Positions 2,363-33,700 of a DNA stretch of 38,910 bases are shown here, one piece after another. Source of the DNA: Nemertoderma westbladi (Eukaryota; Animalia; Xenacoelomorpha); NCBI GenBank assembly GCA_032718475.1, contig JAUCBJ010003625.1, positions 1-38,910 on the forward strand, read 5' to 3'. The first letter of the stretch is position 1. Every line of letters starts with the position of its first letter. The position numbers and the translations under genes were made by a program. The notes beneath the pieces are model-generated. The model worked only from the letters and a program-made list of their open reading frames with translations, made no database searches and had not been told where the DNA came from.

Positions 2363-3130
2363 AGTTGGCAATATGGTAATCACAGACACCAGTGCCAATA
2401 TTGTAATTACAGACAACAGTACCAATGTTGTAATTACAGACACCAGTGCCAAAATGGTAATTACAGACACCAGTGCCAATATGGTAATTACAGACAACAG
2501 TGCCAATATTGTAATTACAGACACCAGTGCCAATATTGTAATTCCATACACCAGTGCCAATATGGTAATTACAGACACCAGTGCCAATATGGTAATTACA
2601 GACACCAGTGTCAATATTGTAATTACTAATGCCAGTGCCAATATGGTAATTACAGACACCAGTGCCAATAGTGTAATTACAGACACCAGTGCCAATAGTG
2701 TAATTACAGACACCAGTGCTAATATTGTAATTACTAATACCAGTGCCAATATGGTAATTACAGACACCAGTGGCAATATTGTAATTACATACACCAGTGC
2801 CAATATGGTAATTACATACACCAGTGCCAATATGGTAATTACAGACACCATTGCCAATATTGTAATTACATACACCAGTGCCAATATGGTAATTACATAC
2901 ACCAGTGCCAATATGGTAATTACAGACACCAGTGCCAATATGGTAATTACAGACACTAGTGCCAATATGGTAATAACAGACACCAGTGCCAATATTGTAA
3001 TTACAGACGCCAGTGGCAATATTGTAATTACAGACATCAGTGTCAATATGGTAATTACAGACACCAGTGCCAATATGGTAATTACAGACACCAGTGCCAA
3101 TATTGTAATTACAGACACCAGTGCCAATAT
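2363..3130. repeat. 27-bp minisatellite (~28 units, consensus CCAGTGCCAATA(T/G)GTAATTACAGACA-like)
   Basis: Direct tandem repetition; the repetitive ORFs in several frames (SANMVITDT / GTGVCNYHI / ALVSVITIL) follow from the 27-bp period; a further ~1.3 units lie at 3352-3387. Confidence 0.95.
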
Positions 3131-3892: not shown

Positions 3893-4550
3893 TTAAGTCG
3901 TTAGGTCATCGGGTAACATCGCTGAACAAGTTCCTTTTATGTTCCCCTGAGTATCAGGAAAGTTAATCAATCCAGGTTTATATTCCAGAAATCCATCTGG
4001 GGAGATATCTACAGGGTATGGAATTAGGTGTCCTGGTAGGTCGTTGGGTTCATCCTGTATGTACAACTCCCAGTTGCGTTCTGCTAACTCATTAACGGTT
4101 TGGATGCAATTAATGCCGCTGGGCTCAAGGAAACGATCTACGTTGTTCACGAACTCTGTTCCTAAATGTTCGGCGAACAATGACATTCGGAATCCGTGGA
4201 CCGCTCCACGAGGTGCCGTGGCTCCATCATCTACGTGTCCCGGCTGGTAGGCCCCAACCGCAATCTCACTGTCACGTCCTCCACTCATTGATCGCTGGTT
4301 GATGTTGGCAGATCCAACGATTGCCACTCCATCATCTACGTGTCCCGGCTGGTAAGCCCCAACCGCAATCTCACTGTCACGTCCTCCACTCATTGATCGC
4401 TGGTTGATGTTGGCGGATCCAACGATTGCCACTTCATCATCTACTATCATCATCTTAGAGTGAACGTAGATCGGGAACCGACGGGTTGACTGCAGATTTG
4501 TCTCGACTGCGGTCGATCCCACGCAGATGTCTTCAGGTAAATCCGCCTCC
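3893..4550 (-). CDS. PLD: PLD exon 7 (second HKD motif, PLD C-terminal domain, stop)
   Basis: Acceptor ttgaAG at 4552-4551; [48 protein letters not shown]. Confidence 0.92.
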
Positions 4551-7500
4551 CTTCAAATAAAAATATTATATAGTAAGCATTAATTCCTGAAAGCCATAAT
4601 GTATGACATATCTAAACTATGCTATAATTTTGAAAGGCAACAGAAACAAATTATATACCTGTTTACTATACAATAAAACCGTAGATATTCAGTTAATTCT
4701 CTTCCTCCTGGTCTATCTGAAGTCCTCAAACAATCAGCCAATCGTTTGTACATCATTTCCATCGTTCTGCATTGCCATTGGAGGATTTCTTGGGTGGCTG
4801 CTGCATTTGGATCGCCTTCTGGGAACATGGGTATGACAATGTAAACTGTGAAATCTTCGTTATTACTACAAAATAATAAATGAATTGTAATTAAATGCAG
4901 AAATTATGCTTGTTATAAAATTTATAATTATTATTTTATTATTTATTATATTCAATAATTATAGAAACAGTTTAACAATTTTTAATTAAATATAGTAAAA
5001 TAATTATCACAGTAGAACACTATTGTATCATTAAAAAGAAAATAATAACAGAATAGGACTACAACAAATTAGGAGAAACTATAGAACCAATAAAGCAACA
5101 ATAAATTTTGACAAACTATAGAACTGAAAAACTGATAAAACAACATATTTTGACAGACTCAAGCATACAGTATGTTCACTATCATATCATTAAAAAGAAA
5201 ACAACAACAGAATAGGACTACTACAATTTAGGAGAAACTGAAGAAAAACAAGTAGAGCAACGGCGTTTAGGGTAAATCAGCAGTCTGGTCTAGAGGTGTC
5301 TCCCCTGTCTCTCCCTGTACCCCTCCACTCCATTTCACCCAAACCGAAAGATTCTGTCACGCAGGAGGAATTGCCGATCTGAACACAGATCCCAATTCGT
5401 TGACGGAGAAATTCAGTGGCACGTTTGTTTCCTGTGCTACTCTCAATGCGTCTACAAACCTCTCGGAGAAATGCCAAGGAGCATGGGCCAATACCACCCA
5501 GGGTTTCAAATGCAACTGGTTGCACAATATAACTATTAGATAGCTCCTTGTACTTATCGAGCATTGGTTCCCCCAAGCTTGACACTAGAACAAAATCGCC
5601 TCCGCTTTGCAGGACATTGCTTTCGCCGTGAGGACCAGCCAGTGCATAATCTTGTACTTTGGCAGCCTCATGGAGTGAATAAGCATGGTGGACAGCCCAA
5701 GACATTCTTGAGATGCATCTTAAAGGACACTGGCCTTAAAGATGCGGATGATCTAGCAAATGTCATGGGTGATAGGGAGTTGTGGCGGTGCAATTTTGTT
5801 TGACAAGCCGGCACAGCATTCTTAAAAATGCAGCTGCAATGCAGCATGCCGATCCTAGTAGTAGTAGTAGTAGTAGTAGAGGTGTTTCGGGTTGATGAGC
5901 ATCTTCCCACCTCGACGGCCATCCAATCATTCTGCATTGCATGACATTTATTCCCAAATCACAATAAAAATTAGGAAAGTAACCTATCAACTGTATTAAA
6001 AGCATGGCGAGAAGACAATGATCTAACCACTGCCTTATATAAAATGGTGGTTCCAACACCAACCTGAAGTGGCTTTAATGATGTGTGGCTATACCATTGG
6101 TAGACGAGTTCATGCAATTTGTCCGATCTCCTTGATGACACTTCAACACAAATGTGATATCACTGATCATACTTTTTCTTGTGAAGGAATAGGGTATAGA
6201 TTGTGGAAGCACCCCTCGAAAAGGGTCACACAGGTAGAAGGTTATGCACCCCTGCACCCCCCCCCCCCCCCCCCCTACTACAACTACTACTACTACTAGG
6301 ATCGGCATGCAGCATTGCAGCTTCATTTTTAAGAATGCTGTGACGGCTTGTCGACAAAATTGCGCCGCCACAACTCCCTATCACCCATGACATTTCCTAG
6401 ATCATCCGCATCTTCAAGGCCAGTGTCTTTTAAAATGCGTCTCAAGAAAGTCATGGGCTGACCACCATGCCTATTCACTCCATGAGGCTGCCAAAACACA
6501 AGATTATGCACTGGATGGTCCTCACGGCGAAAGCAATGTCCTGCAAAGCGGAGGCGATTTTGATATAGTGTCAAGCTTGGGGGAACCAATGAGACACCTC
6601 CTATGTTATATAGTGTCTGATTGAAGATATGTGCATTGTACTTGACACAATGAACTCGGCGTAGCATTCTTGTGAATGTGCCATCCAAAGATTTGGTGTC
6701 CTCAGCAGTTAGAGCCCAGCATGGACTCCCATAGATGAGTACTGGAACTACTACTGCTCTAAATAATCGGACCTTAAGCTTCCGATCAATTATCTGTGAC
6801 TTCCAAATCCTGGAAATCCTATTCAAGGCTTTACAGGATGCCTTTCCCTTACTTATTCGAAGGTCCTCACCTGACTTCCGGATCAATGCCCCCGCCAATG
6901 CGAAATCTCGATAAAATATATCCAAACTTGGTACATATGTAGTCTGGCAAAAGTTTAGAAATTTTCCAAGTTGAATTTGCGTTGGGTCTTCGTGCAGTAT
7001 CTGTGTAACTGTCTTACAGTTATAATAAATTTATCTCCCCAAAAATTATTAGGCTTGGCATCAGCTGGTTGCTAGGAGACAACGGGATTACAGTACGGTA
7101 CCAGTACTGTTAACTGTTACAGTGGTACAGAGTTACCAGTACCGTCTTCAGGTCGTTGGTCGTTGGCAAGGCCATCTAAACAACAGGCCATGACAAGGAC
7201 CTAGCCTTCAAAATTATCGTAGGCTGACTGCTGATTATGGTACCTAAACCTGTAAACTGTACCTAATCTCAGAAGCTATATACTGTTATTGGGCTTTGGA
7301 ATAACATTAAAATATTTTATTATAAAACCATCGGAAATATCCGCAAATGCCACTCCATTACTGTTTTAAACGCTTCCGACAGTCCGATGTATCTAGACCC
7401 GAGCAGCCGAGTGGCATCAAGATGCGATTAACTGAGGAATAAATACTACGGAATTGCTTGCTTGCCAATAAGATTCTATTTACTACACTGGGAATACGGC

Positions 7501-10500
7501 GGTCGGTCGGATCATAATGCGGGCCACTGCCAAGTTCCTCATGTCTCACTCAGGCCACCCACCTTGGAGTGCGGTGGGAAGAGTCCGACTTACGTCGACG
7601 ACTGGACGAATCGACGAGGATTGCGATTTGGGTTTAGTCCGGTGACTACGGACGGATACTGGGATGAGCAGGTATTTCGAACGAGTTTCTCTTATTCTCG
7701 ATTTTCTCGAATTCTCGATATTTCCTATAAACCACATGTTTTCGCATATTGAACGTGTGATTGGAAATAAGTTTGTGCTACGCTTCCGCCACTTGGGTGG
7801 TAGATGTCGCGGTTATGTATTGGTTGGTAGGAAGGGGGGGGGGGGGGGGGGGGGTGGTGTTACAGATTAAAAGGGTTGAACACGTACTGTCCCCCTTTTT
7901 TTTATTGATTGTTGGTATGGTTAAATTTCTCAAATACTGATTTTGTGATACAGTCGCTCAATTTTTTTTTGTATCTCATAACTGGGCCTCGTCCTGCGCG
8001 AAGGCCCCACGAACGTGTTTGAGGTGCTTAAGTCTGAGAATTCCCTACTATAGAAAATTTGTTACTCTATAAGCTCAAGGTCTGATCTGAGAAGGACCAT
8101 GAGCTGAATCTGGTGGTACAGGTATAATTGTCATAGATCTACTACATTGAAGCCAATACAATCAACTATGTTGCTAATTAATCCATCTTATATGTTGTAT
8201 GATTCCAACATCAATAAATAAACAGTTTGACTTACTTTATCTTTCTAATGATCTTGTTTACAATCTCTATAGGTACCAAGTGAATAGCCTTTGTCGCTGG
8301 TTTGTCCCAAGCATGTGCACTCCCGAGGAAGTATTGATTCTCGATGTAGATAAATTTATTGGCTCGCCGTATGTGGTGAATATAGGCCTTGTAGATAGAT
8401 GCTTCAGTGTTCTTTCCTGATTTCTTCAGAAGACTATTTTTTAGGTTTTCTTTAAAACTCACCGAATCGCTGTTTATCGACCTAGAAAGTAAATTATTTA
8501 GTAAAGATAAACAGAGTACTGATTAGCTTGGCTATATTATGCTAATCCTTGATATTTTGTATTAATATTACATTATAAATGTTATTATAATTATTTTTAA
8601 TATTGCATTAACATGAACTTGTTACACATGTTAAAAACAAGTAAAATTTATACAATATTTTATGATTAATTGATACAATATTATTTAACGATTTAAATTA
8701 CATATTTTTTCTAACCTGAACAATTGAACACTCCATGTATCAGAAGGATTATCATCTACAACACCATCGATGTCATAGTCTTCCGGAGATAAATCTTCAA
8801 GTAGATCTGCTTTATTCTTTGCTTGCTTTATCCAACGCTCTTTGAAGTTGAGTAAAACATCATAAACAATTCGCCCCTCTATCTGCACCAGCATATAAAA
8901 AGCATTATGATATAAAATAGATTTTGTTTCATTATGTCAACTTAACAGCGTGAATTATAGTCCATGGGCCATCCGGCTTAGGGGATACTTTTTGGTAACA
9001 ATCTGGAACTTTTATTTTTGGGAAGACCTATCTTTTGGCCTCTCATTTTGATATGATAACAAATCTGAATCGGTAGCTGAATTGGTGTTATCACCGGTTG
9101 AATATGGAAATGGCAAAATATCAAACATGCTGTAGTAGTCTAAGAACTCAATATAAATTCATCGCGTCTGGTCTTACTTAGTTTTAATTAGTTTACTAAT
9201 CTAATTAGTTTACTTTTCGAATGACCTCCACATTATTAATTTGACCCTTATGATGTCTATTTAAGTTATTTAGTTTTCGAATGACTTCCCAATTATTCTA
9301 CACGTTTTCTGGACTCAATGATGCTCTATTTATATTACACCGTTATTTGCTATTCTGCTGTTTGTATTTCACTAGTTGTTGTTACTTGGTGCTCGTTAAT
9401 TTGTTTTCCCCTAATTTCATTCTGTCAATAAAATAATAATAATGGGAGGGCCATGGGCCGTATTTATGTATATTATGATAACTTAAGGATGGTGGTTTGG
9501 GTTGATTTGATTTAGAAACAACCAATTAGTTGAGATTTTGCGGTTTCAAGTTGATGTTCTATGGGACTTTCAGATTATCGGTAATTTCTTATAAACTGTT
9601 ATGTTATTTTTTATTTCATACACAAAAAAGTGTTCTAGAAAATATATCAAAAAATATATCACAGAGTACACCCGTGGACTAAGAATACTCCATTTCCTCT
9701 TATGACATCATACGAACTAAGAATACTTACATACCTAATTAAGTATTTATTAAATAAAGTGGATTTAGTATTCAAAAATGTCATTATATAGAGGGAATCA
9801 TCTTTACAGAAATCATTTAGGAACAATGATATTCTAAAGTTAATACTAACCTTATTTTATGGTAGGTGTCAAGTCATATGTTTCATTGTGTGCGTCTGGG
9901 TCATTATTTGGATTGTAAACTTAATTTCAGTGGTAAACTGTATGAAATTACAGTTTTTTTTACTTTACGACTGAATTATTTATCTGGCAGTATCGACATC
10001 GAGAAAATATTGTAGAGCTCAATGGCTAAAGCCCCCACCAAAGAGAAGAGCAGCTGGACTAATCAGTCGGTCTGTTGCACAGAGTGTGACGTTATTTGGA
10101 CAGATATCAGGTATATGAAGTCGACGGCGGCGGCGGAAACCATAAAGAACAGCGACTTTCTTTGCGGAATCTGTGCCGCAGGTACAACAGCAACACTCCG
10201 GAAACAGATTGCCGAACTGCGGAGCAAAACAGCGATAATAACGGAATCGATATCAGGCGACGGCGACGAGGATAATCCGATCTCATGGTCGTCAGTCGTA
10301 TCCTGGCGAAAAAAGAGACAAGCGGGCGGCATTGTTCAGCCGAGTAATGTTTCAATCATTGCGAGAGAGTTGCAGAATGAAGTAAAACTTCAAGAGGAGA
10401 AGAAAAATAACCTCATCGTAAGTGGTGTTCCAACAAGTTCTGATCTTAGTGACGAGGAAATAATTGTCGACATCGCACTCGATATAGGAGTGGAGCTGTC

Positions 10501-13500
10501 AACAGTTGATGTCATTAATACTAAACGGATTGCCCCTTATTCGAGGGCCAAAAGAAATCAAGAAAGAATTGGGTCAACTCAAACCCATAATTCAAATGCT
10601 CATCTTCGGAAGATCGTGGTTACCCTCAGCCCGGAAAATCGGCGACTGCTCCTGCAGTCTTCCAAGAAGCTCAAGGACTCGCTACGTCATGGTTCAGTTT
10701 ATGTCAATCCAGATCTTACTGCGGCTGAGCGGAAGGAACAGTATGAACTTCGTGAGGCTTTGCGACAGAAACGCGTTAATGCGCCTGCGAAACAATGGAT
10801 TATCCGCCGCAATCAAGTAGTTGAATTATCCAACAGACGTTCGTCACCAGCTGCTATGAGAGCCGACGATTCGGTTGTAGCCGTTGAGGGAATGGACTGA
10901 CTGGTGGATGCCGACTTTGAAATGACCTCAACAGAACGTGTCATCCAGACCTCGCAAGTTCCGGCCTCGCCAGTCCGGGCCGGGCTTGTTCCGGTGTCGC
11001 CAGCCACCATGGCCTCCTCGCCATTTTGGGCCATCCCAGCCTTGCCAGTCCGGGCCTCCACGGTCTCGCTTGTTCCGGCGTTGCCAGCCAACACGGCTTC
11101 GCCAGTTCTAGCCTCACCAGTCCATGCCTCAACAGCATCTCCAGTTCAGGCCTCTGCGACCTCGCCGGAAGTCTCAGACACAGTTTCCACAGCATCTGTT
11201 CAGTCACCCTCGGACCCCGGTTCCACAGCAAGAAAAATTAACTTTTGCCTTTTCAACCCACGATCAGTATGTAATAAATCCGACTTTATAAAGGACTATA
11301 TTGTTGACAATAATGTTGATGTTATGGCAGTAACAGAGACTTGGCTGACTGGGACTGATGATGATGTGTGGATTACAAAAAACATTTGTACTCTTGGCTA
11401 CCGCATTATCCATCGACCACGGATTTATCGTATTGGTGGAGGAACTGCTTTAATATATAAAGATTCTCTCAATGTAAAACTCGGTTCAACTAATAATGAC
11501 TATGTAACTTTTGAAGTATTGGAGTTATTGCTTCATCAGGAAAGATCACTATGGAGAATCTACGTGATATATAGACCATGCCCAAGTAGTAAAAATGGCT
11601 TGAACGTTGGAAACTTTATGGAGGAATTTTCCACCTTTCTAGAACATGTTACTACAACTACTGGGAAATTATTGATAGTTGGGGATTTTAACTTTCATGT
11701 GGATGATAAGAATGATAAGGATGCACAGAAATTTTTGGAACTCTTAGACTGCTTCGGTTTCACACAACATGTAAATGAACCAACACACATAGCCGGTCAT
11801 ACTCTGGATCTGATTATATCACCTACTGAGGAGAGCCTGGGTACCAATACGATACACATACGTGATATTGGATTATCAGATCATTTTACAGTCATGTTTA
11901 ACCCTGATTTTGACAGTCATAAACATGATAATCTCGGAATGAAGACATTCAGAAAGTATTCACACGTGGATATTGAATCATTTTGTGAAGATATTCTTGG
12001 TTCAAATTTAGCATGTTCACAGACGGAGTACAGCCTGGATAATCTAGTGACTGGATATCACGACGTACTGGCGGATTTGCTCGATCAACATGCACCACTT
12101 ATACAGGTAACCAACAATAAACGGCCATCAGCCCCATGGTACTCGGTAGAGATTGCAGATCAGAAGAGGATTCGGCGCAAGCTCGAGAGGAAAAAGAGCC
12201 GGAGAGATTCAAATGAGACTGACAAGATATTATACCGTGAGAAATGCAAAGAGGTCGCTGATCACATAACGAGAACAAAGCAGAATTACTACAGAGAACT
12301 TGTTGCGAGTCCTGGTATCGATACACGCGACTTATTTAAGGTTATTAATAAAACTTTGCATCGTGAACAGAGTACTTGTTTACCACAGCACGACTCTGAA
12401 CTAGACTTGGCAAACAATTTTGCCGACTACTTCGATGGTAAGATACAAAAGTTACAAGACGAGTTGGATAACTACAATGTTGATTACACTACTCAGTCTT
12501 CCACAGTCACTGATGACTTCAACATTGAGCAAAATGCAACATTTGCAGGATCAACGGACATTCCAAAGCCAGTATTTGACAAGTTCGATTCTGTATCACC
12601 TGATGACGTTAACGACATGTTAAAGGACATGAAGTCAAAGACAAGCCAAACTGACCCAATTCCAACCTGGATGGTAAAACGCTCCATCTCAGTCTTGCTA
12701 CCAATACTAGTTGCGATTGTCAATCTATCTTTGTCTCTTGCGAAATTTCCACAGTCTCTAAAAGATGCTGTCTTGACACCAATATTGAAAAAACTTAATT
12801 TAAATCCCGAGTTATTAAAGAACTTTCGACCTGTGTCAAATTTGAAGTTTCTCTGCAAACTGATAGAAAAGGCCGTTGCCATTCAACTAATAAAGCATCT
12901 TGAAATTAACAACCTATATGAGCCCTTGCAAAGTGGTTATCGCAAATGGCACAGCACTGAGACGGTATTGCTCAGGGTTCACAATGATATGCTCTGCGGA
13001 ATCGATAATGGTAGCGCTGTATTGCTGATTCAGTTGGACTTGAGCTCTGCCTTCGACACCATAGAACATGAGAAGCTACTTAATATACTGCAGAGAGACA
13101 TTGGAGTGACCGGCGATGTTCTCTCATGGTTCAAATCGTACCTGTGTGATAGAACTCAATCAGTCTCAATAGGAAGTGAACGTTCTAGAATATTTAAACT
13201 GCGTTATGGTGTCCCACAGGGTTCGGTCTTGGGCCCATTGTTATTCATCATCTACATGCAGTCTCTAGGGAATGTTATCCGGAAGCACGGTCTATCGCAT
13301 CACATATATGCGGATGACACCCAAATTTATATATTATTTAAGCCTGAACAATATTTACAAGCGAAATCAGTCACCGAAGAATGTTTGAAAGAGATTCAGG
13401 AATGGATGAGGGAGCACTTCTTGAAGTTGAATACCGATAAAACTGAAACAATTTTGTTACAATCACGCTATGCGGCACCTCCACATCACATGAATGGTGC

Positions 13501-14306
13501 AATACAAGTGGGTGATGATTTGGTGCCAATAAGCGAATGGACTAAGAGTCTAGGTGCCATTTTTGATACCAACTTCACAATGGTTAGACATATAAACGCG
13601 ACCGTGCGATGTTGTTTCTTTCATTTAAGAAGAATCGCGAAAATCAGAAACTGTTTTGACAGTCGTACCTTGGAAACAATGGTGCACACGTTCATTACCA
13701 GTAGATTGGACCAAAACAACTCTCTTTATTATGGTCTACCAAAGAACCTTATCGGCAAACTACAGAAAGTTCAAAACGCCTCAGCACGTCTGATAAAACG
13801 CATCCGCAAGAGAGATCCTATTACCCCTACACTGAAGGAATTACATTGGCTGCCAGTAGAGAGAAGGATCGAGTATAAGATTGCACTACTAACATATAAG
13901 TGCGTTAATCATTTGGCTCCAAGTTACTTGGCCGAATTATTGGATCGATATGAACCATATCGTACCTTAAGAACAAGTGGTGCTGGACTGTTACGCATTC
14001 CAACGTGTAGACTTACCTATTATGGTAGACGGTCGTTCTCCTTTGCAGCTCCAACGGTGTGGAACTCACTACCCTCGAAAATCAGAGACTCTCCCACACT
14101 TGATTCGTTTAAGGCTCAGCTAAAAACCCATCTCTTCATAAAGCAATACGGGAATTAAGTTTTTCAGCGTGTTTTTAAACTTTTAAATTCATTAATGACC
14201 GATCTCTTTGTATAGCAATACTTTTTAATGTTTTTAAAAATTTTAAATCGTTAAATTTTGTGCAGTGCAGCGCCTTTGATCATCACGTTAAAAGGCGCTA
14301 TATAAA

Positions 14307-14337
<31 letters not shown>

Positions 14338-17300
14338 CTTAAATTGCATCTGTAGTCATGGTATCCTGTGAAGGAGTGGTGTCTGAAATGCCATTTAGAT
14401 GTCACTTGTTATTTTAAAGTATTGTACTATAGTCACATTATGATTGCTTTTCATTGACCTAAATATTTTGTTAAAGTCATAATTATGAAACAGAGTGAAA
14501 TGAGATTAAAATGATGATAAAGAAAAATATTTCAGACATGGGTATATCTTTGGTACCATATATAACCGTTATAACATAACAGGTTTCGCTCTCAGTATAC
14601 CAAAATTTTCCAAAACTAATATTCATCAACATGTGGAAATTTGTTTTTAAAATAATGATATTGTTCTAGAATGGTAGCTAGTTTTCTAAAACATGTCAGT
14701 TTTCATTTAGCAGCGCTTCCATGGCAACAATATTTATATTCCAGAATGTTATGACACATTTAGCGGCTTTTTTATGTGAGGTATTCTGAGCTTTTTTTCA
14801 AGGATTTTTTTCAAGGTTTTTTTTTAGTTTTTTTTCTAGCTTTTTTTCAAGCTTTTTTTCTAGCTTTTTTTTCAACCTTTTTTTACGCTTTTTTTGAGAT
14901 TTTTTTGAGCTTTTTTTTCTAGCTTTTTTTTTGAGATATTTTCAAGCTTTTTTTGAGCTTTATTCTATAGTTTAGGTTTTACTATTTGAAAAGCAGATTC
15001 ATCTTGAAGCAATTAAATTCTAGAAATTGTTATAACTAAAAAAAAAAAGCTCAAGCGCGAAATGGGCCTTCAGCAGGAGTACCTATATTATATATTCACA
15101 TAGGATTCACTGGGAAGAGATATTCCGCTTGACGACGGGGTAATACCTATAGAAGGAAACTAAATTTATTATTTGGCTCTATTCGTTGTTATTTATCTGG
15201 TTGTGCATCATGGGCATTTTTTATAAATATTCGGTAATCTTATCTTATATCTTGTAAACATGCTTGATAATAAAATTATTTGCTTCATATTATATTTTTG
15301 TTAGTGGTAACTAAGTTTCATTTGTTATTATGTGGGGCGAGCCACAAAGTCAGCTAGCCTCACGCCTTACAGTTTAGACAATTGTTTAGTTTACTTACTG
15401 CTGACTGACATAGTTCTTTGAAATATTCTTGGCTAGGATTCTTCCTCCGGGCTCCTTCCAGCCAGCTTGCTGGCGTTCTAGTAAATTCACAAGTAAATGC
15501 CAATTATATTACAAGACAAACCGAACCCTCTTATTTGTTACACTGATTCCGGGGTCTACCGCATATCCTCGACAGGCCACTGGTTGACCGACAGCAGGTT
15601 CCCTGAGCGAAACCGGAAGTCAAGTGGGAAGGGAGGTAGGCATTCTACTAGGGAATCACCTAATAATCGGATAAGAGGCTTTCGAGTATCTCACACACCC
15701 GACGATCCCTGACCTTTACTGGAGGAGTTCCCTTAAGGCCTGTTTAAACGTGGCAACTTTACTAGCAACTTGGTCGGCAACTTTTAGCGCGCAACTTGGC
15801 TAGTTTGACTGTAAAATAGTGGGTACTGCTTCAATATGCGTACACCCCTCACCAAATTTTATCTACTAGCTAGTATTTTATAATTTCTTTTTTTGAAATG
15901 TTAGCTATTTTATTTTGAAAAAGTTAACATTTTTTAGACCAAGGCCTGGTTTGTAATTAAAAAGCATTAAAATTTATGGTAGCTAATAAATAATAAAAGC
16001 AATGATAAAAGTAATTTTTAGAAGAATTTTTTTTTCAAATTTTAAATTTTTATTGTTTCACTACTGTAGCTAATAAAAAGTACTAGCTAACACAAAATCT
16101 AGATCTAAATGAAAAAATCTAAAATCTAAATCTATAACACAAAAGCTACAATCTTACTGTCAGAAGGTCAAATATTTGTTCGAGAACAAAAACCTGATGA
16201 TAAATGATGAAAAAATTTGACTTCTGGATTTCTCTCACAAAATTTCAAATTATCGTATTATCGTATTATATTATTATCGTATTGTTCAAATTATCAAAAT
16301 ATCAAAAAATTTCTCGAATACTGCTTAATTTAATTTGATTATGCCGCTTTAATCCTCGCAAATTCCTTCAAGTTGCCGTAAAAGTTGAGCAACTTTTACA
16401 GCTACGTTTTTTCAGCAACTTACGTGTTTACACGGAGCAACTTTATCGGCTACCGGGGTTGCTCTACAAGTTGCCCAGAAAGTTGCTCTAAAAGTTGCCA
16501 AGTGTAAACAGGCCTTTACACCAAGAAACATATTTCCCTTTAAACCAAAACATTTTCATTGATATATATATACATCATACTAACCTTACTATGTATATCA
16601 TGCCATGGTTCTCTGGGGCCACATTCCGCTTTAACAACAGCGCAATTCTGACGGAAATCACCACAGTGTGTAGTTCGCAAAGTTTTAAACAAGGAATGGA
16701 GAGGAGTATCATAACGTCCATTTGTCAGATCCAAGCCACCCACGAAACCAACCAATCGCCTGCGACCATCTCCAGCCAACCCATCATCATCGCAAATAAT
16801 CGTCTTTTGGTGGTGGGAGAAGCTTGTTGATGCTGCATGCTTATCTAACATACTTCGCAATTTGCTGACTGGTGTTTCAGGGTAATTCTTAAACCGTCCA
16901 GCTAGTTTAACTTCCACTTTCGTCCCTTTAAAGAACTTTCGCGTGTCTTCGTCATGTGTGTTCATCATTCCAGCTGTAATTGAGGTACTGGTCTTCTCAT
17001 TCCACAACAACATCAAACATTTGACTCCTTCCGAAGCTTTCTCCTTGAGTAATTGACCTAATGTGCACTGTGATTTCCCCTCACCTCTTTGCAACCGGAT
17101 TTGTGTGTATAATGACCATCCTGTTATGTATATGAATCGTTGGGCCTCCCGTAAGGCTTTCGCTACATCATCCCAAGCACTAGACATCATGTAACGGCCA
17201 TTATGCATCAGAATATCTGGGTTATCCGAAAAACCCTCTTCAACACATGCGTCTTGGTAAAGAGTTACCCGGCAACCACGACGTAATGGGAAGTACATAT

Positions 17301-20185
17301 CAGGTACCTCCTGGTCGCGAGGTAACGCCCAAGGCGGGATGAACTGAATACTGAACTCCAAGGTTGCATTCTGAATGGGATTCCCTTTGTTGTCAACAAG
17401 ATTAACGACTTCTTTTATCAGTTGCCCACTCTCTACGGCATGAGCCGGCATATTGTGTTTCCTAATATAAATGAACAAAAATTATAACTAAATTATATGA
17501 TACAGTAGTGTATACCAGTAAAACCACCTACAATTGATATTGTAACACCAATGATTTGATGTAATTAGACTGTTTGGGTTGTTTGTTTTTGCATAGTCGA
17601 ATAATGATGCATACAATAGTAACAGCCGGGTAACTTTGGACACATGAACCTTTATCATACATATTTTAGTGCGGTGCAAATAGGTATTTTCTAGTGTGAA
17701 AATAATTCAGAAAATTTTATCTTATTTGCGTAGCCCCTCTGTGTTAAATCGTATGAAATGTGACCAGATTTGTGTCATACTTGTGATCACACCCACGGAT
17801 GGGCTGGAAATATATCCACTATCCTACAATATACTAAGTACTTCTTCAATAGCTTGGTGATAGTTACTGTACGTACAACACATAACCTACCCTAATAATT
17901 CACTACCGATTCGGTCTTTGTCTTTAACAGCAAATTCTACTGTGCTACACTTATTACCAACATCGATAGAGTGTTTCTCATTCCACTTGGGATTCAAATC
18001 GTCATTAATCACCATGGTTTTTATGACTCGCGCTTTGCCAAGCAACACCACAACGTAAGGGTCGCTGAGATCCTTCCTAGACAGGTGAAAACAATAAAGT
18101 TAAACAACATGGCGTTAACAGAAGCCTTTGTTTGGCCAGCGGCCTTAGCTTCAGAATTATAACCGTACACTATTATCTGGACATCAATAATCTATACTGA
18201 TTTGGCAACATTCGTTTGATATTCTTTACGCACGGTAAGTATAAGCCTAATTAATCACAAAAAAAACGGAGTATAAATTTTATATAACTGCAATAAACCA
18301 CATTAACCACTGCAGACGGGTACTAGTGCAGTATGTGTAGGCCTACTCTCATTTTAGGCTCCATGTAAGCGTTCATTTTTAAGCGGCCCTCTATGGGTTC
18401 AAATCGACCACTGCAGTTCCAATGAACAACCACATGCAACCATTAAAAGCCTATAATGATAATGCTTTCCTATATAATATCGCGGCATTACTATGATATG
18501 GATACCCACATTCTGACCAAATTTTTCATAAGAAAATGACTTTTATCATGAGGATTTTTGTTCTAGAACAAATATTTGACCTTGTGACAGTAAGATGGGA
18601 GCTAGTTATTTTAATTTTATAGTCATTATTTACTAGCTAATTTTTTATACAAAATATTGATTGATGTCTGTAAAAATACACAGTTAGTATTGTATTATTC
18701 AAAAATGCCAATAATATAGATATAAAAAACTGTGTCTTTTGACAGACATCAATGTTTTGTATAACAATTTTGTCGACCGAAGGTCAAATATTTGTTCTAG
18801 AACAAAAATCCTCAAAATTGGTCAATAGGTAGGTACCAAAAATTTGGCTTTGTAAATTATAAAACACTAGCTACCATAAAAAAAACAATAGCTAACGTCC
18901 CCCAGAAGATGACATTTGTTCTAGTACAAAAAAGCTCATGATAATAATCATTAACATGAAAAATTTGGTACCCATAACATAGTAATGACCCAGCTAGTAA
19001 TATTAAAAAAATTGGAATAGGATGTACCGTAATTCGGGGTGACTTGATACAGTTTTTGCCTTTAACTGTGAATATCTTCTGAAGTTTTTATCCTACACAG
19101 ATGGAATAAAAATAAAATTTTATAGTCGGGATGAGTACTACACTACTAGACTAAAGCACTATTTCAGGTGCTTAGTCTAGTGGTGTTTTTTTCGTAAAAA
19201 CCAGCTGTATCAAGTCACCCCACATAACGGGGTGACTTGATACACAAGCAAATTTTCCGCAATAATACCACTCTGTGAATGAGTTTGGATCATGTTGTAG
19301 GCTGTGGGGGTGACTTGATACATCTTGGAAATTTTAAAAAAAGAACGAAGTCCCCACCTAACGGGGATATAAAATTATGGCTAAAATTAAAAATAACTCC
19401 ATTTTTTATGGCAAAATATTTCATATTTAACAAGTTAAATTGCACTTTAAAAACGAAAAAGACCTTCATTGTTAATTTTTGAACAACATTAACCCAAAGT
19501 GTCAAAAATTCGACCTATATTTTGACTTTGAAAAAAAGTGAATTTTTGAACAATGCATTCTTGGCTCTAGAGATCACAAATGCGAAGCAATGACAAAATT
19601 TATTTTACTATTTGATAGACAAATTATTCAGACATCTTCTAATATTTCAATTTTTATCATAACATCACGCAATCACCCACAATCCGTTAAAGAAAAAAAG
19701 TATAACTTGCTGTATCAAGTCACCTCAATGTATCAAGTCACCCCGAATTACGGTACGCGTACTGCGCTATATTACCAAACTACTGAGTCAAGTAATGGAT
19801 ATAATTATAAATAAATTACAAATTAAGATAGACAAACAAACATAAATGTGTCCAAATATTATTTTATTTATGTGCTAATTATTTATCATTACTTATTTAC
19901 CTTATTTTTGAGCCATAACTAAGTCGCCTAGCTATAATACTGTGCATTTTACTGTTTCAACTTGTATATTTACTTGTATATTTTACTTATCGCTGATATG
20001 ACTGTGATGTATCCGGACTCCGAATAATATAATAATAATAATAATAACCTGTTGACTTTTCTGAAAAACTTTTTTACTTTACGACTAATGTCTACATCGG
20101 CATCGGGAAGGTTATTTGCTCTTATTATATGAACATTCAACTTTCCACTCAGCTCGATCTCATCACTGGTGTTACTCTGAGCCAT
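3893..20185 (-). CDS. PLD: C2-domain phospholipase D (plant PLD alpha/beta/delta-type architecture), 7 coding exons: join(20185-20049,18076-17891,17461-16585,8882-8716,8481-8236,4865-4659,4550-3893), ~825 aa
   Basis: All six introns are GT-AG with compatible phases (2,2,0,2,2,2); total 2478 nt; C2 (SDPY, NPKWNE, VKDKD), [27 protein letters not shown]1 [34 protein letters not shown]2 [21 protein letters not shown], ends LPDDLTT*. Confidence 0.9.
4659..4865 (-). CDS. PLD: PLD exon 6
   Basis: Acceptor ttttgtAG, donor AG|GTATAT; [15 protein letters not shown]...QEILQWQ.RTMEMMY...[10 protein letters not shown]. Confidence 0.9.
5277..6250 (-). mobile_element. Degenerate CRE-like non-LTR retrotransposon remnants (REL endonuclease C-terminus at 5277-5560; possible RT remnants at ~5980-6090), interrupted by an RTE copy
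   Basis: KY.EL...[15 protein letters not shown]...AFLREV.RRI...[21 protein letters not shown] resembles the CRE-clade restriction-like endonuclease terminus; LKPLQVGVG and AFNTVDR-like peptides further upstream. Confidence 0.6.
5562..5879 (+). mobile_element. 3' fragment of an RTE-clade LINE with (TAG)n tail
   Basis: [24 protein letters not shown]...GG.PKT..R.ILKDTG...MGDRELWR, short 3' UTR, then (TAG)n. Confidence 0.85.
6276..6895 (-). mobile_element. Second, longer 3' fragment of the same RTE-clade LINE, inverted relative to 5562-5879
   Basis: [22 protein letters not shown]...[26 protein letters not shown]; (CTA)n on plus strand at ~6276-6298. Confidence 0.85.
6903..7637 (+). repeat. Dispersed ~740-bp non-coding repeat, copy 1 (copy 2 at 21389-22158)
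   Basis: Near-identical sequence from AAATCTCGATAAAATATATCCAAACTTGGTAC to GATTGCGATTTGGGTTTAG at both loci. Confidence 0.9.
8236..8481 (-). CDS. PLD: PLD exon 5
   Basis: Acceptor tttctAG, donor GTAAGT; [29 protein letters not shown]...HLVPIEI. Confidence 0.92.
8716..8882 (-). CDS. PLD: PLD exon 4
   Basis: Acceptor tgcAG, donor AG|GTTAG; [17 protein letters not shown]...WSVQLFR continues HDIHSK of exon 3. Confidence 0.9.
10022..10900 (+). CDS. LINE ORF1 protein (Cys-rich zinc-finger-like N-terminus, coiled coil, RRM-like domain)
   Basis: CTEC...CGIC; NLIVSGVP...[10 protein letters not shown]...ELR..LR...WIIR typical of CR1/L2 ORF1. Confidence 0.85.
   Translation: MAKAPTKEKSSWTNQSVCCTECDVIWTDIRYMKSTAAAETIKNSDFLCGICAAGTTATLRKQIAELRSKTAIITESISGDGDEDNPISWSSVVSWRKKRQAGGIVQPSNVSIIARELQNEVKLQEEKKNNLIVSGVPTSSDLSDEEIIVDIALDIGVELSTVDVINTKRIAPYSRAKRNQERIGSTQTHNSNAHLRKIVVTLSPENRRLLLQSSKKLKDSLRHGSVYVNPDLTAAERKEQYELREALRQKRVNAPAKQWIIRRNQVVELSNRRSSPAAMRADDSVVAVEGMD
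10904..14158 (+). CDS. LINE ORF2: APE endonuclease + reverse transcriptase (first ATG at 10922)
   Basis: FNPRSV, TETW, GGG, IYRP, GDFN, TLDL, SDH; [32 protein letters not shown]; C-terminal [12 protein letters not shown]. Confidence 0.95.
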   Translation: MDADFEMTSTERVIQTSQVPASPVRAGLVPVSPATMASSPFWAIPALPVRASTVSLVPALPANTASPVLASPVHASTASPVQASATSPEVSDTVSTASVQSPSDPGSTARKINFCLFNPRSVCNKSDFIKDYIVDNNVDVMAVTETWLTGTDDDVWITKNICTLGYRIIHRPRIYRIGGGTALIYKDSLNVKLGSTNNDYVTFEVLELLLHQERSLWRIYVIYRPCPSSKNGLNVGNFMEEFSTFLEHVTTTTGKLLIVGDFNFHVDDKNDKDAQKFLELLDCFGFTQHVNEPTHIAGHTLDLIISPTEESLGTNTIHIRDIGLSDHFTVMFNPDFDSHKHDNLGMKTFRKYSHVDIESFCEDILGSNLACSQTEYSLDNLVTGYHDVLADLLDQHAPLIQVTNNKRPSAPWYSVEIADQKRIRRKLERKKSRRDSNETDKILYREKCKEVADHITRTKQNYYRELVASPGIDTRDLFKVINKTLHREQSTCLPQHDSELDLANNFADYFDGKIQKLQDELDNYNVDYTTQSSTVTDDFNIEQNATFAGSTDIPKPVFDKFDSVSPDDVNDMLKDMKSKTSQTDPIPTWMVKRSISVLLPILVAIVNLSLSLAKFPQSLKDAVLTPILKKLNLNPELLKNFRPVSNLKFLCKLIEKAVAIQLIKHLEINNLYEPLQSGYRKWHSTETVLLRVHNDMLCGIDNGSAVLLIQLDLSSAFDTIEHEKLLNILQRDIGVTGDVLSWFKSYLCDRTQSVSIGSERSRIFKLRYGVPQGSVLGPLLFIIYMQSLGNVIRKHGLSHHIYADDTQIYILFKPEQYLQAKSVTEECLKEIQEWMREHFLKLNTDKTETILLQSRYAAPPHHMNGAIQVGDDLVPISEWTKSLGAIFDTNFTMVRHINATVRCCFFHLRRIAKIRNCFDSRTLETMVHTFITSRLDQNNSLYYGLPKNLIGKLQKVQNASARLIKRIRKRDPITPTLKELHWLPVERRIEYKIALLTYKCVNHLAPSYLAELLDRYEPYRTLRTSGAGLLRIPTCRLTYYGRRSFSFAAPTVWNSLPSKIRDSPTLDSFKAQLKTHLFIKQYGN
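14788..14962. repeat. Low-complexity AGC(T)n repeat tract
   Basis: Repeated (A/GA)GCTTTTTTT units. Confidence 0.7.
15736..16515. mobile_element. PIF/Harbinger-type non-autonomous element (MITE)
   Basis: TIR AGGCCTGTTTA(A/C)AC(G/T)TGGCAACTTT at both ends, TTA duplication (15733-15735 / 16516-16518), subterminal GCAACTT repeats. Confidence 0.85.
16585..17461 (-). CDS. PLD: PLD exon 3 (end of C2, first HKD)
   Basis: Acceptor tattAG, donor AAG|GTTAGT; [70 protein letters not shown]. Confidence 0.93.
17891..18076 (-). CDS. PLD: PLD exon 2 (C2 domain core; not in the supplied ORF track)
   Basis: Manual translation [61 protein letters not shown]; ctAG acceptor, GTAGGT donor. Confidence 0.88.
18486..18987. 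mobile_element. Fold-back/MITE-like element with long imperfect inverted arms
   Basis: CATTACTATG...ATTTTTGTTCTAGAACAAAT at left versus ATTTGTTCTAGTACAAAAA...CATAGTAATG at right; a related segment lies at ~16152-16210. Confidence 0.55.
19027..19753. mobile_element. TA-target (Tc1/mariner/pogo-like) MITE
   Basis: Perfect TIR CCGTAATTCGGGGTGACTTGATACA, TA on both sides; internal copies of GGGGTGACTTGATACA (~19206 inverted, ~19229, ~19307, ~19711 inverted). Confidence 0.88.
20049..20185 (-). CDS. PLD: PLD first coding exon (start of C2)
   Basis: [30 protein letters not shown]...; donor CAG|GTTATT, phase 2 fits exon 2; possible upstream acceptor catcAG at ~20194. Confidence 0.75.
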
Positions 20186-22158: not shown

Positions 22159-22321
22159 CGGCGGCCCGGACAGCCGGATCCTGGGATCACCCGGGGGAAA
22201 TTGCTGAAAGTCGGGCAGACGTGTATCGCACCGGATTACATCCCCTGCCACGCGAAAGTGTGAGGCGAATTCGTTGTCGAATTGGGTCGGAAGCTGCGGG
22301 AATTCTACTGTTCTGCGGGAA

Positions 22322-30737: not shown

Positions 30738-33700
30738 CTAATCCTTCCGGGGCTTTCGCGAGTACTTCCTCCGGCGCAGTCTATCTCTAACTGACATGGA
30801 AGATAACTCCTTAACGTATTCGTTAAGGCGGATGTGGAAGAGACCGCCTCGCTGCTCCTCCAGTGAGAGTCTGGCCTCGCGGTGTATAAACGCCCCCATC
30901 ATCTGCGTCTGGTTGAACGGCTTCAGGAAACGCCGCAGCGATTTCGAAGACTTTTTCCTGCGAAAGGCGTCGGCGTCGAAGCGAACCAACCGATCGGTGG
31001 CGCCGCTAGTTAAGTGGTCGTGGAAACCGACTAAAAGTTCCACGAAAAACCGGAGGAACGATTCGACCACGACGGTTCGTTGGGGGCAGTCCCCGCGTTC
31101 CACCGAGTAAATGGAGTTCTCCAAGGCTTCGACCAGCCGGGACGGGAGAAGGGAAGATTCGTCGCCTATAGTCCGGACGAAGGTGCCGCAATCGAGGTCC
31201 ACGAGAAGGACCTCCTCGAGGGGCAGTGTCTCCAACTCGGGGACCCCGATGCTGAGAACCCCGACAACGTACGGCGTCGGGGAGCAGCACATGTCGATGA
31301 GATCCACCGGGAGTACCGGTATGTAGGTGTGCTGCCACTGGAAGGGGTAGAGCAGCGCGGACAGCGCGTGGACGCACTCCGAGAGTTTACTGATCTTACG
31401 AGCCGACAAGATAACCCGTCGTTCTAGAAGCAACGATGCAAACACTTGAATCACCTTGGTGACGGAGAGACTCGAGAACAAGCAATCAAAGTTAACGTGT
31501 TCTAATCGCGAGTCTAGGGGGCGCTGAAGGACTAAGACGCTGCGCTTAAAGTCGACTTTCTGCCAGTCCGGGAGATCCACTTCTATTTTTTCTCCGGCGC
31601 GCGGAAACGGGTGATTAATGACGCTCTTAAGGAAGGCGAAGACCGCGCTGGTAGAGATACTACGGTGTTCCTCGACTTCGTTAAGGATCGCCTCGTAAAG
31701 GCCGAAGCAGCCGAGCGGAGAGATGATGCAGTAGGTCTCGGGAAGCCGGGGGTTGCCGACCCCGGGTGGGCCGCCCCCGACACGCCTCTGGGAGCTGCGG
31801 TTCCCAGCCGCCGCCGGGGGGAGGAACCGCCGGCAGTAGCCGAACAACCGCGACCCGTCCTCCGAGGTCAGCACGAAGGAAAAGGTCTCGCTGCGGTACG
31901 CCTCTACCGGGGCCCAGAGCCGCGCGTCCGGGAAGCAGAAGGAAGGGATGGCGTCGAGTTTGTCGCAGGGATCGGAACCCGAAGGATCCGGGGGGAACCG
32001 GTAGATAATCGCGGGTTGGTAACCCGCCGCCCCGTCCGGGGACTTATTGAGTCCGACGACGAAAACGTAGTCGAACAGCTGTTGGTATTTGTCTTCGGCG
32101 TTTCTCCGGTCCAACGAGACGCATTTCATCGCGTCGACGACCGAGTCGCGATCCTCCAACGAGGTCAGGGAGGCGACGTCGCTTCCCGAGGGCCCCGCTG
32201 GATGGCGTCGTAACCCCGAGAACGCGGCAGCGATCCGCTGTCGCAACCCGATTCCTCGCTCCCCCGACGCCGAGGACAACTCGCTGCGATCCGTTAGCTG
32301 CGATACGTTGGACTCGGCGCGGGACTTTCCCTCGGATCTCGTGTCCGACGAGGGTTCCTCGCTGTGCTCCGCCGCGTTCCGACGCGATCGCATCGATTTG
32401 GAACGCCGCAGAACGTTCCCCAACGTGCGCGTCTTCATGTTGAAGGTCCGACGGAACTCGGAACGCCCATGACGCAGCGTTCCGTCCGACTGCGGCTGCG
32501 ACGGCGGGGAACGCAAGTAATCCCCGATCGTGTTGTTCCGAGCCAGGGGTTCTGAACGTGTGAGATCAGAATCCCCGGACAGATCCGTATAGAACGTTGC
32601 CGGACGATTCATTTGCAAATTATTCGTCTCAGCAGCTGAAACGGAAGTACCGCTAATATTATTATTAACTTTACTAGGCCTACCTGCTACTGTACTACGG
32701 TTCCTATTTGCACTGCCATTCACCTCCTTATCAGTTGGACTTCGCCCTCGAATAGTTTGTTTATTATCTCGGCTACCCGTGTGGTTCACTCGTTCAACTA
32801 ATCTCAGAGTATCTCGCATTAATACCGCGTCCGCTGGGCGCCCCCTTGCCCCCTGCTGCCCCCCTGTTCGCTCCTTCAGCTGCTCCAGATCGTACGCGAA
32901 TGTGCGCGCGGGTTTGGGCGGCGGGGTAGCCTCCGCGCGCACCGGGCGTCCCAACTCTCTAACCGCTCGATTTATTACCTCCAACAGTTCCGCCTCGCTG
33001 CTGTGGTTCACCGACCGTTTATACGGCCGATGTCGGAAACTCAGATCCGACAGACTTTTAGGCTTCCCTTCCGGGCGCGACTCCCTCGCCGGGAGCGCGT
33101 CGCAACTTCTCCTTGAGACCTTCTCCGATGAGATCGCCTCGGTAGAGTCGCAGCTGAGGTACGTGGTCTCGCTGCTGGACTCCACGTTGCCGCTGTCCAC
33201 TTCCGAAGGTTTCTCTCGCGGCGAGAACCGATTCGGGAGCAACTCGGCCGAGTTGCGCTTCCCGCGGTTGTCGTTCGGAGGCGGATTGGCGACGGAGTAT
33301 CGGCTGCGGACGATTCGCGGCTCGGCAGCGGAGGCGTCGAGGCCGCGGTAGACCGCGTCCACGATGGACGAGCGTACAGAGCGACGAGCCTCCTTGTCGA
33401 ATTGGTAGGTGGAAACGTCGAAGTTCTCCGCGAACATTCGGACGTAGGGGCGGGGGGATTGGCGTCCGAGGGGGGAGATGGAACGGCGGTGGTTGGAGGA
33501 GCGGAAGTCGGTGTCCTCCGGGAGGGAGTGCCGGGCTGGCTGACGGAGAGGAACTCGGAGCGACGCGGGTTGACGGACCGGGGCCGTCGAATTTACTGCG
33601 TCCCGTACCGCCGCCGCCGTCTGGCCTACCGGCACGGGATTACGTACCAATCGCTCCACGGCGCTGCGTTTTGAGTCGGAGGTGTTCGCCCGCCGTCGGG

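What the first reader, a model, noticed from the sequence alone, without database searches (positions are those of the whole stretch)
3893..20185. Plant-type C2-domain phospholipase D as an intron-containing gene in an animal-like genome
Seen: seven exons splice in frame to ~825 aa, with an N-terminal C2 domain, two HKD motifs, IYIENQYF and a C-terminus LPDDLTT. Established: canonical animal PLD1/PLD2 have PX-PH N-termini, whereas the C2-HKD-HKD architecture with motifs such as YFP.R.GC.VTLYQDA, Mx[13 protein letters not shown] and LP..LTT defines the plant PLD alpha/beta/gamma/delta class. The neighbourhood (DENND2/ST5, L2/CR1/RTE LINEs) looks metazoan, and the gene has AT-rich, TE-laden introns, so it is embedded in this genome and unlikely to be contamination. 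Inference: either an ancient, patchily retained C2-PLD lineage or a domesticated horizontal acquisition, which would give an animal a Ca2+-regulated route to phosphatidic acid. Similar genes may already be auto-annotated in some invertebrates; I cannot check this.
Basis: partly seen in the sequence, partly recalled or inferred. Interest (0 to 1): 0.8.

Follow-up and report, generated by a model that had tools for sequence, protein, structure and literature searches.

The report
Plant-type phospholipase D retained in animals
This invertebrate genome carries a spliced gene for the C2-domain ('plant-type') phospholipase D, a predicted calcium-regulated lipid-signalling enzyme whose relatives are already annotated in crustaceans and comb jellies, so it is likely an old eukaryotic gene kept by scattered animals rather than a new theft from plants.

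Summary
Observation confirmed: seven GT-AG exons give 825 aa, C2-HKD-HKD-PLD_C. One public run holds a contig of a near-identical copy with introns 4-6 spliced out; genomic contigs from two other studies cover exons and introns. A 105-bp tandem duplication in exon 7 is absent from that contig, so the usual protein is likely 790 aa. Not unique to this animal: C2-PLDs are named from 20 crustacean species and a ctenophore, and from an ichthyosporean, euglenids and red algae; two Mnemiopsis PLDs, one with a C2 domain, were published in 2018 as horizontal transfers (PMC6005172). In ML trees the gene joins ctenophore, crustacean and unnamed copies, not land plants (SH-aLRT/UFBoot 96.7/93 with two long branches removed; UFBoot 74 with them). 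Forcing it among plants is rejected only marginally or not at all (AU 0.046-0.72). It shares no intron position with the plant alpha/epsilon or copepod genes examined. Best reading: an ancient eukaryotic C2-PLD, patchily retained in animals, likely a Ca2+-recruited source of phosphatidic acid. New member of a known family; its value is as a third animal lineage that questions the ctenophore transfer claim. No earlier scan note on this protein was found.

The parts
20049..20185 (-). Exon 1: start codon, first strand and loop 1 of the C2 domain (D30)
   Evidence: GT donor and in-frame join; aligns with C2 start of homologues; not covered by the spliced run X4
17891..18076 (-). Exon 2: most of the C2 domain (D51, D98, D100, E105)
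   Evidence: Pfam C2 E 3e-13; PDB C2 domains, e.g. 4v29 E 5.5e-9
16585..17461 (-). Exon 3: end of C2, linker, first catalytic half with HKD1; D178, H363, H395 of the active-site Ca2+ site
   Evidence: PLDc; 6kz8 E 3e-60; held by 5 runs of 3 studies; an X4 contig stops exactly at the donor 16585 with 28 further letters
16789..16812 (-). HKD1 (H325, K327, D332)
8716..8882 (-). Exon 4
   Evidence: X4 contig joins exon 4 to exon 5 (joint 8474-8716)
8236..8481 (-). Exon 5 with IYIENQYF
   Evidence: X4 contig runs exon 5 into exon 6
4659..4865 (-). Exon 6
   Evidence: X4 contig skips intron 6, 108 nt, ends CT..AC
3893..4550 (-). Exon 7: HKD2, GSANIN motif, E734, PLD_C domain, stop
   Evidence: PLDc E 2e-13, PLD_C E 6e-23; 6kz8 E 4e-44
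4439..4462 (-). HKD2 (H637, K639, D644)
4222..4444 (.). In-frame 105-bp tandem duplication (35 aa), three mismatches between copies, ends share a short microhomology; private allele or assembly error
   Evidence: X4 contig skips 105 nt
10016..14337 (+). Intact CR1/L2-type LINE inside intron 3, antisense to the PLD: ORF1 294 aa, ORF2 1085 aa (endonuclease + RT), ATT tail
30738..34811 (-). Neighbouring DENND2-type gene, coded in one uninterrupted frame (host marker, not part of the PLD)
   Evidence: uDENN/DENN/dDENN; animal hits

Best explanation
This is a spliced host gene for a C2-domain, two-HKD phospholipase D that likely descends from an ancient eukaryotic C2-PLD kept by scattered animal lineages, and is predicted to cleave membrane phospholipids to phosphatidic acid when calcium rises. 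Shown: domain order, intact HKD motifs, splicing of introns 4-6 in a near-identical copy, synonymous excess among variants, grouping with ctenophore and crustacean copies in the best trees. Inferred: Ca2+ binds the acidic C2 loops (D30, D51, D98, D100, E105) and docks the enzyme on a membrane; the two HKD halves close one active site, with a second Ca2+ at D178/H363/H395/E734 as in Arabidopsis PLDalpha1; a phosphatidyl-histidine intermediate (textbook PLD chemistry, recalled) is hydrolysed to phosphatidic acid plus head group. With acidic C2 loops it would behave more like plant beta/gamma/delta PLDs than alpha PLDs, giving a Ca2+-driven route beside the GTPase/PKC-driven PX-PH PLD1/2 (recalled). 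Inferred history: present in the animal ancestor, duplicated in crustaceans, lost in vertebrates, flies and nematodes (their lack of it is recalled, not tested).
For: Architecture and catalytic residues; the four AtPLDalpha1 Ca2+ ligands D187/H372/H406/E722 (PMC11174929 passages) map to D178/H363/H395/E734 in the PDB alignments. C2 ligands: acidic at 5 of 5 positions in the window protein, against 1 of 5 and 0 of 5 in two alpha PLDs and 4 of 5 in two beta/gamma PLDs. Splicing: one 916-nt X4 contig joins exons 4, 5, 6 and 7; X1-X3 show none of these joints and bridge exon-intron borders. Constraint: 19 of 35 listed exonic differences are synonymous against 22% expected, p 3e-5 (alleles and paralogs mixed, one search list cut). 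Distribution: 20 named crustacean species, Pleurobrachia, Amoebidium, two euglenids, two red algae, Mesostigma, land plants. Trees: window + ctenophore + crustaceans + unnamed rows on one side of a branch in all five free trees: FastTree (0.953 and 0.964), IQ-TREE quick SH-aLRT 98, 48 rows UFBoot 74, 46 rows 96.7/93. In the 46-row set AU rejects window+streptophytes (0.046), ctenophore+streptophytes (0.035), ctenophore+red algae (0.021). Two likely copepod contigs carry the gene beside Pex3, a MICAL-like gene and a myosin tail. 0 of 6 intron positions shared with plant alpha/epsilon genes, which keep a phase-1 intron inside HKD2. No viral relative among 95 pattern matches; prokaryotic hits 23-37% identical, none matching before query residue 90.
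Against: The tree signal is weak. In the 81-row set the tree with the window held among plants scored 20 lnL higher than the quick free tree (AU 0.72). In the 48-row set no alternative was rejected under LG (plants 0.126, red algae 0.176), and under C20 only red algae (plants 0.33, red 0.03). The rejections came after dropping two long crustacean branches and from shorter constrained searches, one unfinished, which favours rejection. Amoebidium does not group with animals in the free trees (a holozoan clade is merely not rejected, AU 0.40-0.45). 9 of the 16 rows in the animal-side clade are unnamed, the five-row group holding the best BLAST hit has no named member, and a protein labelled Minutocellus (diatom) nests among crustaceans. 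Vertical descent needs many losses. No intron is shared with the copepod genes either. The tree is unrooted and held no PX-PH PLD. GC3 is 0.43 against 0.70 for the DENND2 neighbour. The review reports no Ca2+ in the C2 domain of crystallised PLDalpha1 and finds the four active-site ligands also in PX-PH PLDs, so Ca2+ regulation is not shown by conservation alone.
Confidence: 0.58

Rival explanations
1. One or a few old horizontal transfers from a eukaryotic alga or protist put the C2-PLD into animals (into a stem animal, or into one marine lineage with later spread among ctenophores, crustaceans and this host). The enzyme would work the same way.
For: Very patchy animal range: only crustaceans and a ctenophore among named hits. 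Hernandez and Ryan 2018 call ML00555a and ML49231a confirmed transfers. Amoebidium falls with euglenids and red algae, not animals. No shared introns between window and copepod genes. The window-ctenophore pairing (90/83; UFBoot 57) does not follow the animal tree if the host is a bilaterian.
Against: No donor clade is sister to the animal copies with support. The published test, as read in section 10, held the ctenophore gene against top animal hits from human, fly, Capitella, Nematostella, Trichoplax, Amphimedon and RefSeq; those were probably PX-PH paralogs (my inference), which would reject animal monophyly whatever the origin. That paper itself dropped candidates with unicellular holozoan hits; an ichthyosporean C2-PLD exists. 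A transfer into a stem animal cannot be told from vertical descent by my trees.
Confidence: 0.27
2. A lineage-specific, more recent transfer from a plant or alga into this host alone, independent of crustacean and ctenophore copies.
For: The window branches at or near the base of the animal-side clade on a long branch (0.55-0.66); identity to plant beta/gamma PLDs (40-41%) is close to that to named crustacean ones (40-43%); plant placement not rejected.
Against: All five free trees place it with animal copies; 46-row AU 0.046; best BLAST hits are non-plant; lacks the HKD2 intron found in plant alpha/epsilon genes; no hit among the 211 proteins compared is above about 46% identity over the full length.
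Confidence: 0.09
3. The family is real and expressed in this animal, but the copy in this window is a damaged allele or redundant paralog (35-aa duplication, full-length LINE in intron 3), and the working enzyme is the near-identical second copy.
For: The X4 transcript differs from the window at 11 of 240 and 12 of 169 letters in exons 5 and 4 and follows an alternative intron-5 acceptor also seen in X1-X3; loose ends show a further paralog diverging at 4014. X4 lacks the duplication.
Against: Frame intact, all catalytic residues present; X1 contigs match exon 3 and exon 7 stretches with 0 differences; the duplicated residues fall in a loop of variable length among homologues; X4 differences are mostly synonymous and may be allelic.
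Confidence: 0.1
4. Contamination or chimeric assembly with algal or plant DNA.
Against: Held by runs of three studies with one organism label; introns are filled with repeats at depths in the thousands in the same runs, and contigs bridge exon-intron borders; animal DENND2 on the same contig; animal homologues exist.
Confidence: 0.02

Closest known systems
Plant C2-PLDs (Arabidopsis PLDalpha1, PDB 6KZ8/6KZ9; beta/gamma/delta subtypes)
   Same: C2-HKD1-HKD2-PLD_C order, [25 protein letters not shown] motifs, four active-site Ca2+ ligands, C-terminal LTT; about 40% identity
   Different: Outside the streptophyte clade in free trees; C2 loops fully acidic, unlike alpha; none of the alpha/epsilon intron positions; beta/gamma/delta gene structures were not available
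Crustacean 'phospholipase D alpha 1-like / gamma 1-like' (Penaeus, Homarus, Hyalella, Oratosquilla, Lepeophtheirus, Caligus and others; automatic annotation)
   Same: Same architecture, 40-43% identity, same side of the tree; named as a differentially expressed gene in a shrimp transcriptome paper (PMC8867067, two passages)
   Different: The window gene lies outside all crustacean paralog groups; the two likely copepod genes have one intron each, at another position
Ctenophore C2-PLDs: Mnemiopsis ML00555a and ML49231a (PMC6005172), Pleurobrachia EP00116_P000573
   Same: Intron-bearing animal plant-type PLD genes (14 and 6 introns in Mnemiopsis; C2 listed for ML00555a); Pleurobrachia is the window's sister in most trees, weakly
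   Different: Published as horizontal transfers; my trees place the Pleurobrachia protein with other animal copies. The Mnemiopsis sequences themselves were not in my sets
Animal PX-PH PLD1/PLD2 (PDB 6U8Z, 6OHR, 6OHM)
   Same: Two HKD motifs, GSANIN motif, same predicted reaction
   Different: PX-PH instead of C2; exon 3 E 1e-7 against 3e-60 for plant PLDalpha1; no PX or PH match in the five PLD exons scanned

Membership tests
C2-PLD (plant-type HKD phospholipase D) | N-terminal C2 domain | tested here: met
   Pfam C2 above cut-off; PDB C2 hits
C2-PLD (plant-type HKD phospholipase D) | Two intact HxKxxxxD motifs | tested here: met
   325-332 and 637-644
C2-PLD (plant-type HKD phospholipase D) | PLD_C (PF12357) C-terminal domain | tested here: met
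   E 6e-23
C2-PLD (plant-type HKD phospholipase D) | Active-site Ca2+ ligands equivalent to AtPLDalpha1 D187/H372/H406/E722 | tested here: met
   D178/H363/H395/E734; not exclusive to C2-PLDs per PMC11174929
C2-PLD (plant-type HKD phospholipase D) | Ca2+-dependent hydrolysis and transphosphatidylation of phospholipids | not testable with these tools
   needs an assay
Streptophyte alpha/beta/gamma/delta/epsilon subtypes | Groups inside the streptophyte C2-PLD clade | tested here: inconclusive
   outside it in all free trees; forced placement AU 0.046, 0.126 (71), 0.33 (81), 0.72 (53)
Streptophyte alpha/epsilon subtypes | Phase-1 intron inside HKD2 (window codon 643) | tested here: not met
   found at this position in 9 plant loci of the 23 loci examined; the window has no intron there
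PX-PH PLD (PLD1/2, zeta) | N-terminal PX and PH domains | tested here: not met
   none in the five exons scanned; the N-terminus is C2
Horizontally acquired gene | Nests with support inside a non-animal donor clade | tested here: not met
   no such nesting; constrained versions not always rejected
Horizontally acquired gene | Absent from the host's relatives and from other animals | tested here: not met
   present in 20 crustacean species and a ctenophore; the host's own relatives could not be examined (no genome handle)

The most novel reading that the evidence does not exclude
Animals ancestrally had two PLD classes. The C2-PLD, described in print as unique to plants and as a confirmed horizontal transfer in ctenophores, is one animal orthology group shared by ctenophores, crustaceans and this third lineage, inherited from a eukaryote-wide ancestor and lost in the model animals; these animals have an unstudied, directly Ca2+-activated phosphatidic acid pathway.
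Probability: 0.5. Interest if true: 0.55.

Novelty: new member of a known kind. Interest (0 to 1): 0.36.

Why it matters
C2-PLDs are written of as 'unique to plants' (PMC3056787, passage), and the ctenophore copies stand in print as confirmed horizontal transfers (PMC6005172). A spliced copy in another animal lineage that groups with ctenophore and crustacean copies makes 'transfer versus loss' directly testable, and would turn a cited transfer into a case of hidden paralogy. It also points to a Ca2+-gated phosphatidic acid route in farmed shrimp, lobsters, krill and sea lice, for which I found no enzymology. The gene itself is an ordinary member of a well-known enzyme family.

Tried and rejected
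Whole-genome look-up: none held, so paralogs, a PX-PH PLD and synteny in the host could not be checked. Host phylum: DENND2 is about equally distant from vertebrates and echinoderms; left unidentified. 'No RNA holder listed'; X4 is recorded as guessed DNA and I read it as RNA from its spliced contig and bare introns; a processed DNA copy is unlikely since X1-X3 lack the joints, but not excluded. X4 does not cover exons 1-2: no evidence either way. X1 has no cover at 4261-4311, and bin depths in X1-X3 at 4312-4362 are fully explained by contigs starting at 4331 or 4340 (my arithmetic): fits one copy of the repeat but is absence of cover only. Single-sequence fold of exon 2: pLDDT 48, useless; no fold search run. 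ESM Atlas: only Streptophyta-dominated clusters at 0.92 or above; smaller clusters are not searched. Viral contigs: no relative. Prokaryotic genomes: distant PLDs only. The quick 81-row tree was dropped as a basis for tests after one search showed it had missed the optimum. Automatic intron placement for the two copepod loci and for several plant 5' junctions was ambiguous (near-tied scores); only the HKD2 intron was well fixed. No LINE target-site duplication found. Paper searches gave no study of crustacean C2-PLD origin or enzymology and none holding PLD + Ichthyosporea + C2 domain; the library lacks most subscription journals. Supplements of PMC6005172 (trees, taxon tables) were not read and may bear on how its test was built.

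Full report
Observation. Seven exons on the minus strand (20185-20049, 18076-17891, 17461-16585, 8882-8716, 8481-8236, 4865-4659, 4550-3893) join through six GT-AG introns to one frame of 825 aa. Pfam finds C2 in exon 2, PLDc in exons 3 and 7 and the PLD_C domain in exon 7. Exon 3 matches Arabidopsis PLDalpha1 at E 3e-60 and human PLD1/2 at E 1e-7 to 1e-6. Both HKD motifs are intact (H325/K327/D332, H637/K639/D644).

Is it the host's gene? Exon 3 is held by five runs from three studies under one organism label. In X1-X3, contigs bridge exon-intron borders and the introns are full of repeats at depths in the thousands; in X4 one 916-nt contig joins exons 4, 5, 6 and 7 with introns 4, 5 and 6 removed at the predicted borders, and another stops exactly at the exon 3 donor. 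X4 is on record only as guessed DNA; I read it as RNA. It does not cover exons 1-2. Its letters differ from the window by a few percent and follow an alternative intron-5 acceptor also present in X1-X3, so it represents another allele or a close paralog; loose ends show one more paralog diverging at 4014. Of 35 listed exonic differences 19 are synonymous against 22% expected (p 3e-5; the list was cut). The DENND2 neighbour is 45-49% identical to vertebrate and echinoderm proteins (best 120 of 1300 hits): the host is an animal without a close annotated relative. Earlier scan notes on this genome also describe animal genes (unchecked leads).

A correction to the model. Exon 7 holds a 105-bp in-frame tandem duplication (4222-4444) repeating the 35 residues after HKD2. 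The X4 contig joins across it with one copy, and the A/G difference between the two copies at 4310/4415 is also seen as a variant in X3. It is a private allele or an assembly error; the usual protein is likely 790 aa, in the range of its homologues.

Relatives. Searches with exon 3 and with the Penaeus protein (best 120 of 2829 and of 2072 hits) and cluster look-ups of 30 proteins name C2-PLDs from 20 crustacean species (decapods, krill, mantis shrimp, amphipods, isopods, sea lice; several with two or more paralogs), the ctenophore Pleurobrachia bachei, the ichthyosporean Amoebidium parasiticum, the euglenids Ploeotia and Entosiphon, the red algae Pyropia/Porphyra and Timspurckia, Mesostigma and land plants; 16 of 16 checked carry C2, PLDc and PLD_C. 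No vertebrate, insect or nematode name appeared, but only the best hits were visible. Two metagenome contigs carry likely copepod copies beside Pex3, a MICAL-like gene and a myosin tail. Viral contigs gave nothing; prokaryotes only distant PLDs.

Literature. PMC6005172 (section 10 read, passages of sections 3 and 12; supplements not read) lists Mnemiopsis ML00555a ('PLD alpha 1', C2 + PLD, 14 introns) and ML49231a ('PLD gamma 1', 6 introns, Rhodophyta origin) among nine confirmed transfers. PMC3056787 (passages) calls C2-PLDs unique to plants. PMC8991923 and PMC9607936 (passages) document red algal C2-PLDs. PMC8867067 (two passages) lists a shrimp 'PLD alpha 1-like' as a regulated gene without comment. 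PMC11174929 (passages) gives the AtPLDalpha1 Ca2+ ligands and the alpha versus non-alpha C2 difference. Nine searches found no study of crustacean C2-PLD origin or activity.

Phylogeny. All trees are unrooted and hold C2-PLDs only. FastTree on 209 and 190 rows (17 short rows dropped in the second) and a quick IQ-TREE on 81 rows put the window with the ctenophore, crustaceans and unnamed rows. The quick tree proved unreliable: holding the window with plants gave a tree 20 lnL better. A full search on 48 rows again gave the animal-side clade, UFBoot 74, with window+plants 19 lnL worse but not rejected (AU 0.126), nor window+red algae (0.176) or a holozoan clade with Amoebidium (0.40); under LG+C20 the values were 0.33, 0.03 and 0.45. 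Without two long-branched crustacean paralogs (46 rows) the clade reached 96.7/93, and AU rejected window+plants (0.046), ctenophore+plants (0.035) and ctenophore+red algae (0.021), from shorter searches, one unfinished. Of the 16 rows in that clade 6 are named animals, 9 are unnamed, 1 is the window; 20 of the 30 other rows are unnamed; a protein labelled Minutocellus nests among crustaceans in the larger trees (contamination suspected, not shown). So: a shared animal clade is the best tree each time, with moderate support, and no donor is visible.

Introns. Among 23 loci examined, plant alpha/epsilon genes keep a phase-1 intron inside HKD2 (9 loci, window codon 643) that the window lacks; the two copepod genes have one intron near codon 190-200; none of the window's six positions was matched. 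This argues against a recent DNA transfer from an alpha-type plant gene and is silent on deeper origin. Beta/gamma/delta, ctenophore and decapod gene structures were not available.

Mechanism. Shown: domains and residues. The active-site Ca2+ ligands map to D178, H363, H395, E734. The C2 loops are acidic at all five usual ligand positions (D30, D51, D98, D100, E105; positions aligned to solved C2 domains, canonical numbering recalled), as in most animal-side copies and plant non-alpha PLDs and unlike alpha PLDs. Inferred: a Ca2+ rise docks the enzyme on a membrane through C2, the paired HKD site cleaves phosphatidylcholine or -ethanolamine through a phospho-histidine intermediate, and phosphatidic acid is released for signalling or membrane traffic. 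The review cautions that Ca2+ binding to the C2 domain is unproven even in plants.

Verdict. A real, constrained, spliced C2-PLD gene of an animal: a new member of a known family whose animal members are auto-annotated in crustaceans and published in ctenophores. Ancient retention with many losses 0.58, old transfer 0.27, recent host-specific transfer 0.09, contamination 0.02; separately about 0.1 that this particular copy is a damaged one. The interest lies in the chance (about one half) that the three animal lineages share one ancestral gene, which would overturn a published transfer claim and point to an unstudied Ca2+-driven lipid signal in invertebrates.

Noticed in passing
window 10016-14337 (+): Full-length, uninterrupted CR1/L2-type LINE in intron 3 (ORF1 294 aa, ORF2 1085 aa, ATT tail); depth over most of it in X1-X3 is near the exon level, so it looks low-copy and present in those samples; no target-site duplication found. 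A decayed relative lies at about 300-2040.
   Followed up: partly
window 22323-25532: 3.2-kb satellite of a 27-bp unit with 54- and 81-bp higher-order periods, open in several frames for up to 815 codons; an unrelated 27-bp satellite of 28 copies lies at 2369-3130.
   Followed up: no
window 30738-34811 (-): DENND2-type gene coded in a single uninterrupted GC-rich frame (GC3 0.70) in an AT-rich surround; vertebrate DENND2 genes are multi-exon (recalled). Could be intron loss or a retrocopy.
   Followed up: partly
window 4014 and 4863 (loose ends): Contigs in X1-X3 point to a second near-identical PLD copy with a different intron-5 acceptor and, in X1 and X2, to a paralog with a different C-terminus: a small C2-PLD family in this genome.
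   Followed up: partly
window 5540-5880 and 6290-7030: Two oppositely oriented fragments of an RTE-type LINE 3' end in intron 5, and a roughly 700-bp repeat at about 6900-7640 with a second copy at about 21390-22160.
   Followed up: no
protein P0190: A C2-PLD labelled as from the diatom Minutocellus nests inside a crustacean paralog group; likely contamination of that transcriptome, not checked.
   Followed up: no
proteins P0355 and P0336: Variant architectures: an Entosiphon PLD with PH before C2, and a Hyalella PLD with two C2 domains.
   Followed up: no
proteins P0177 and P0200: Two copepod-side paralogs have lost two of the four active-site Ca2+ ligands while keeping both HKD motifs.
   Followed up: no
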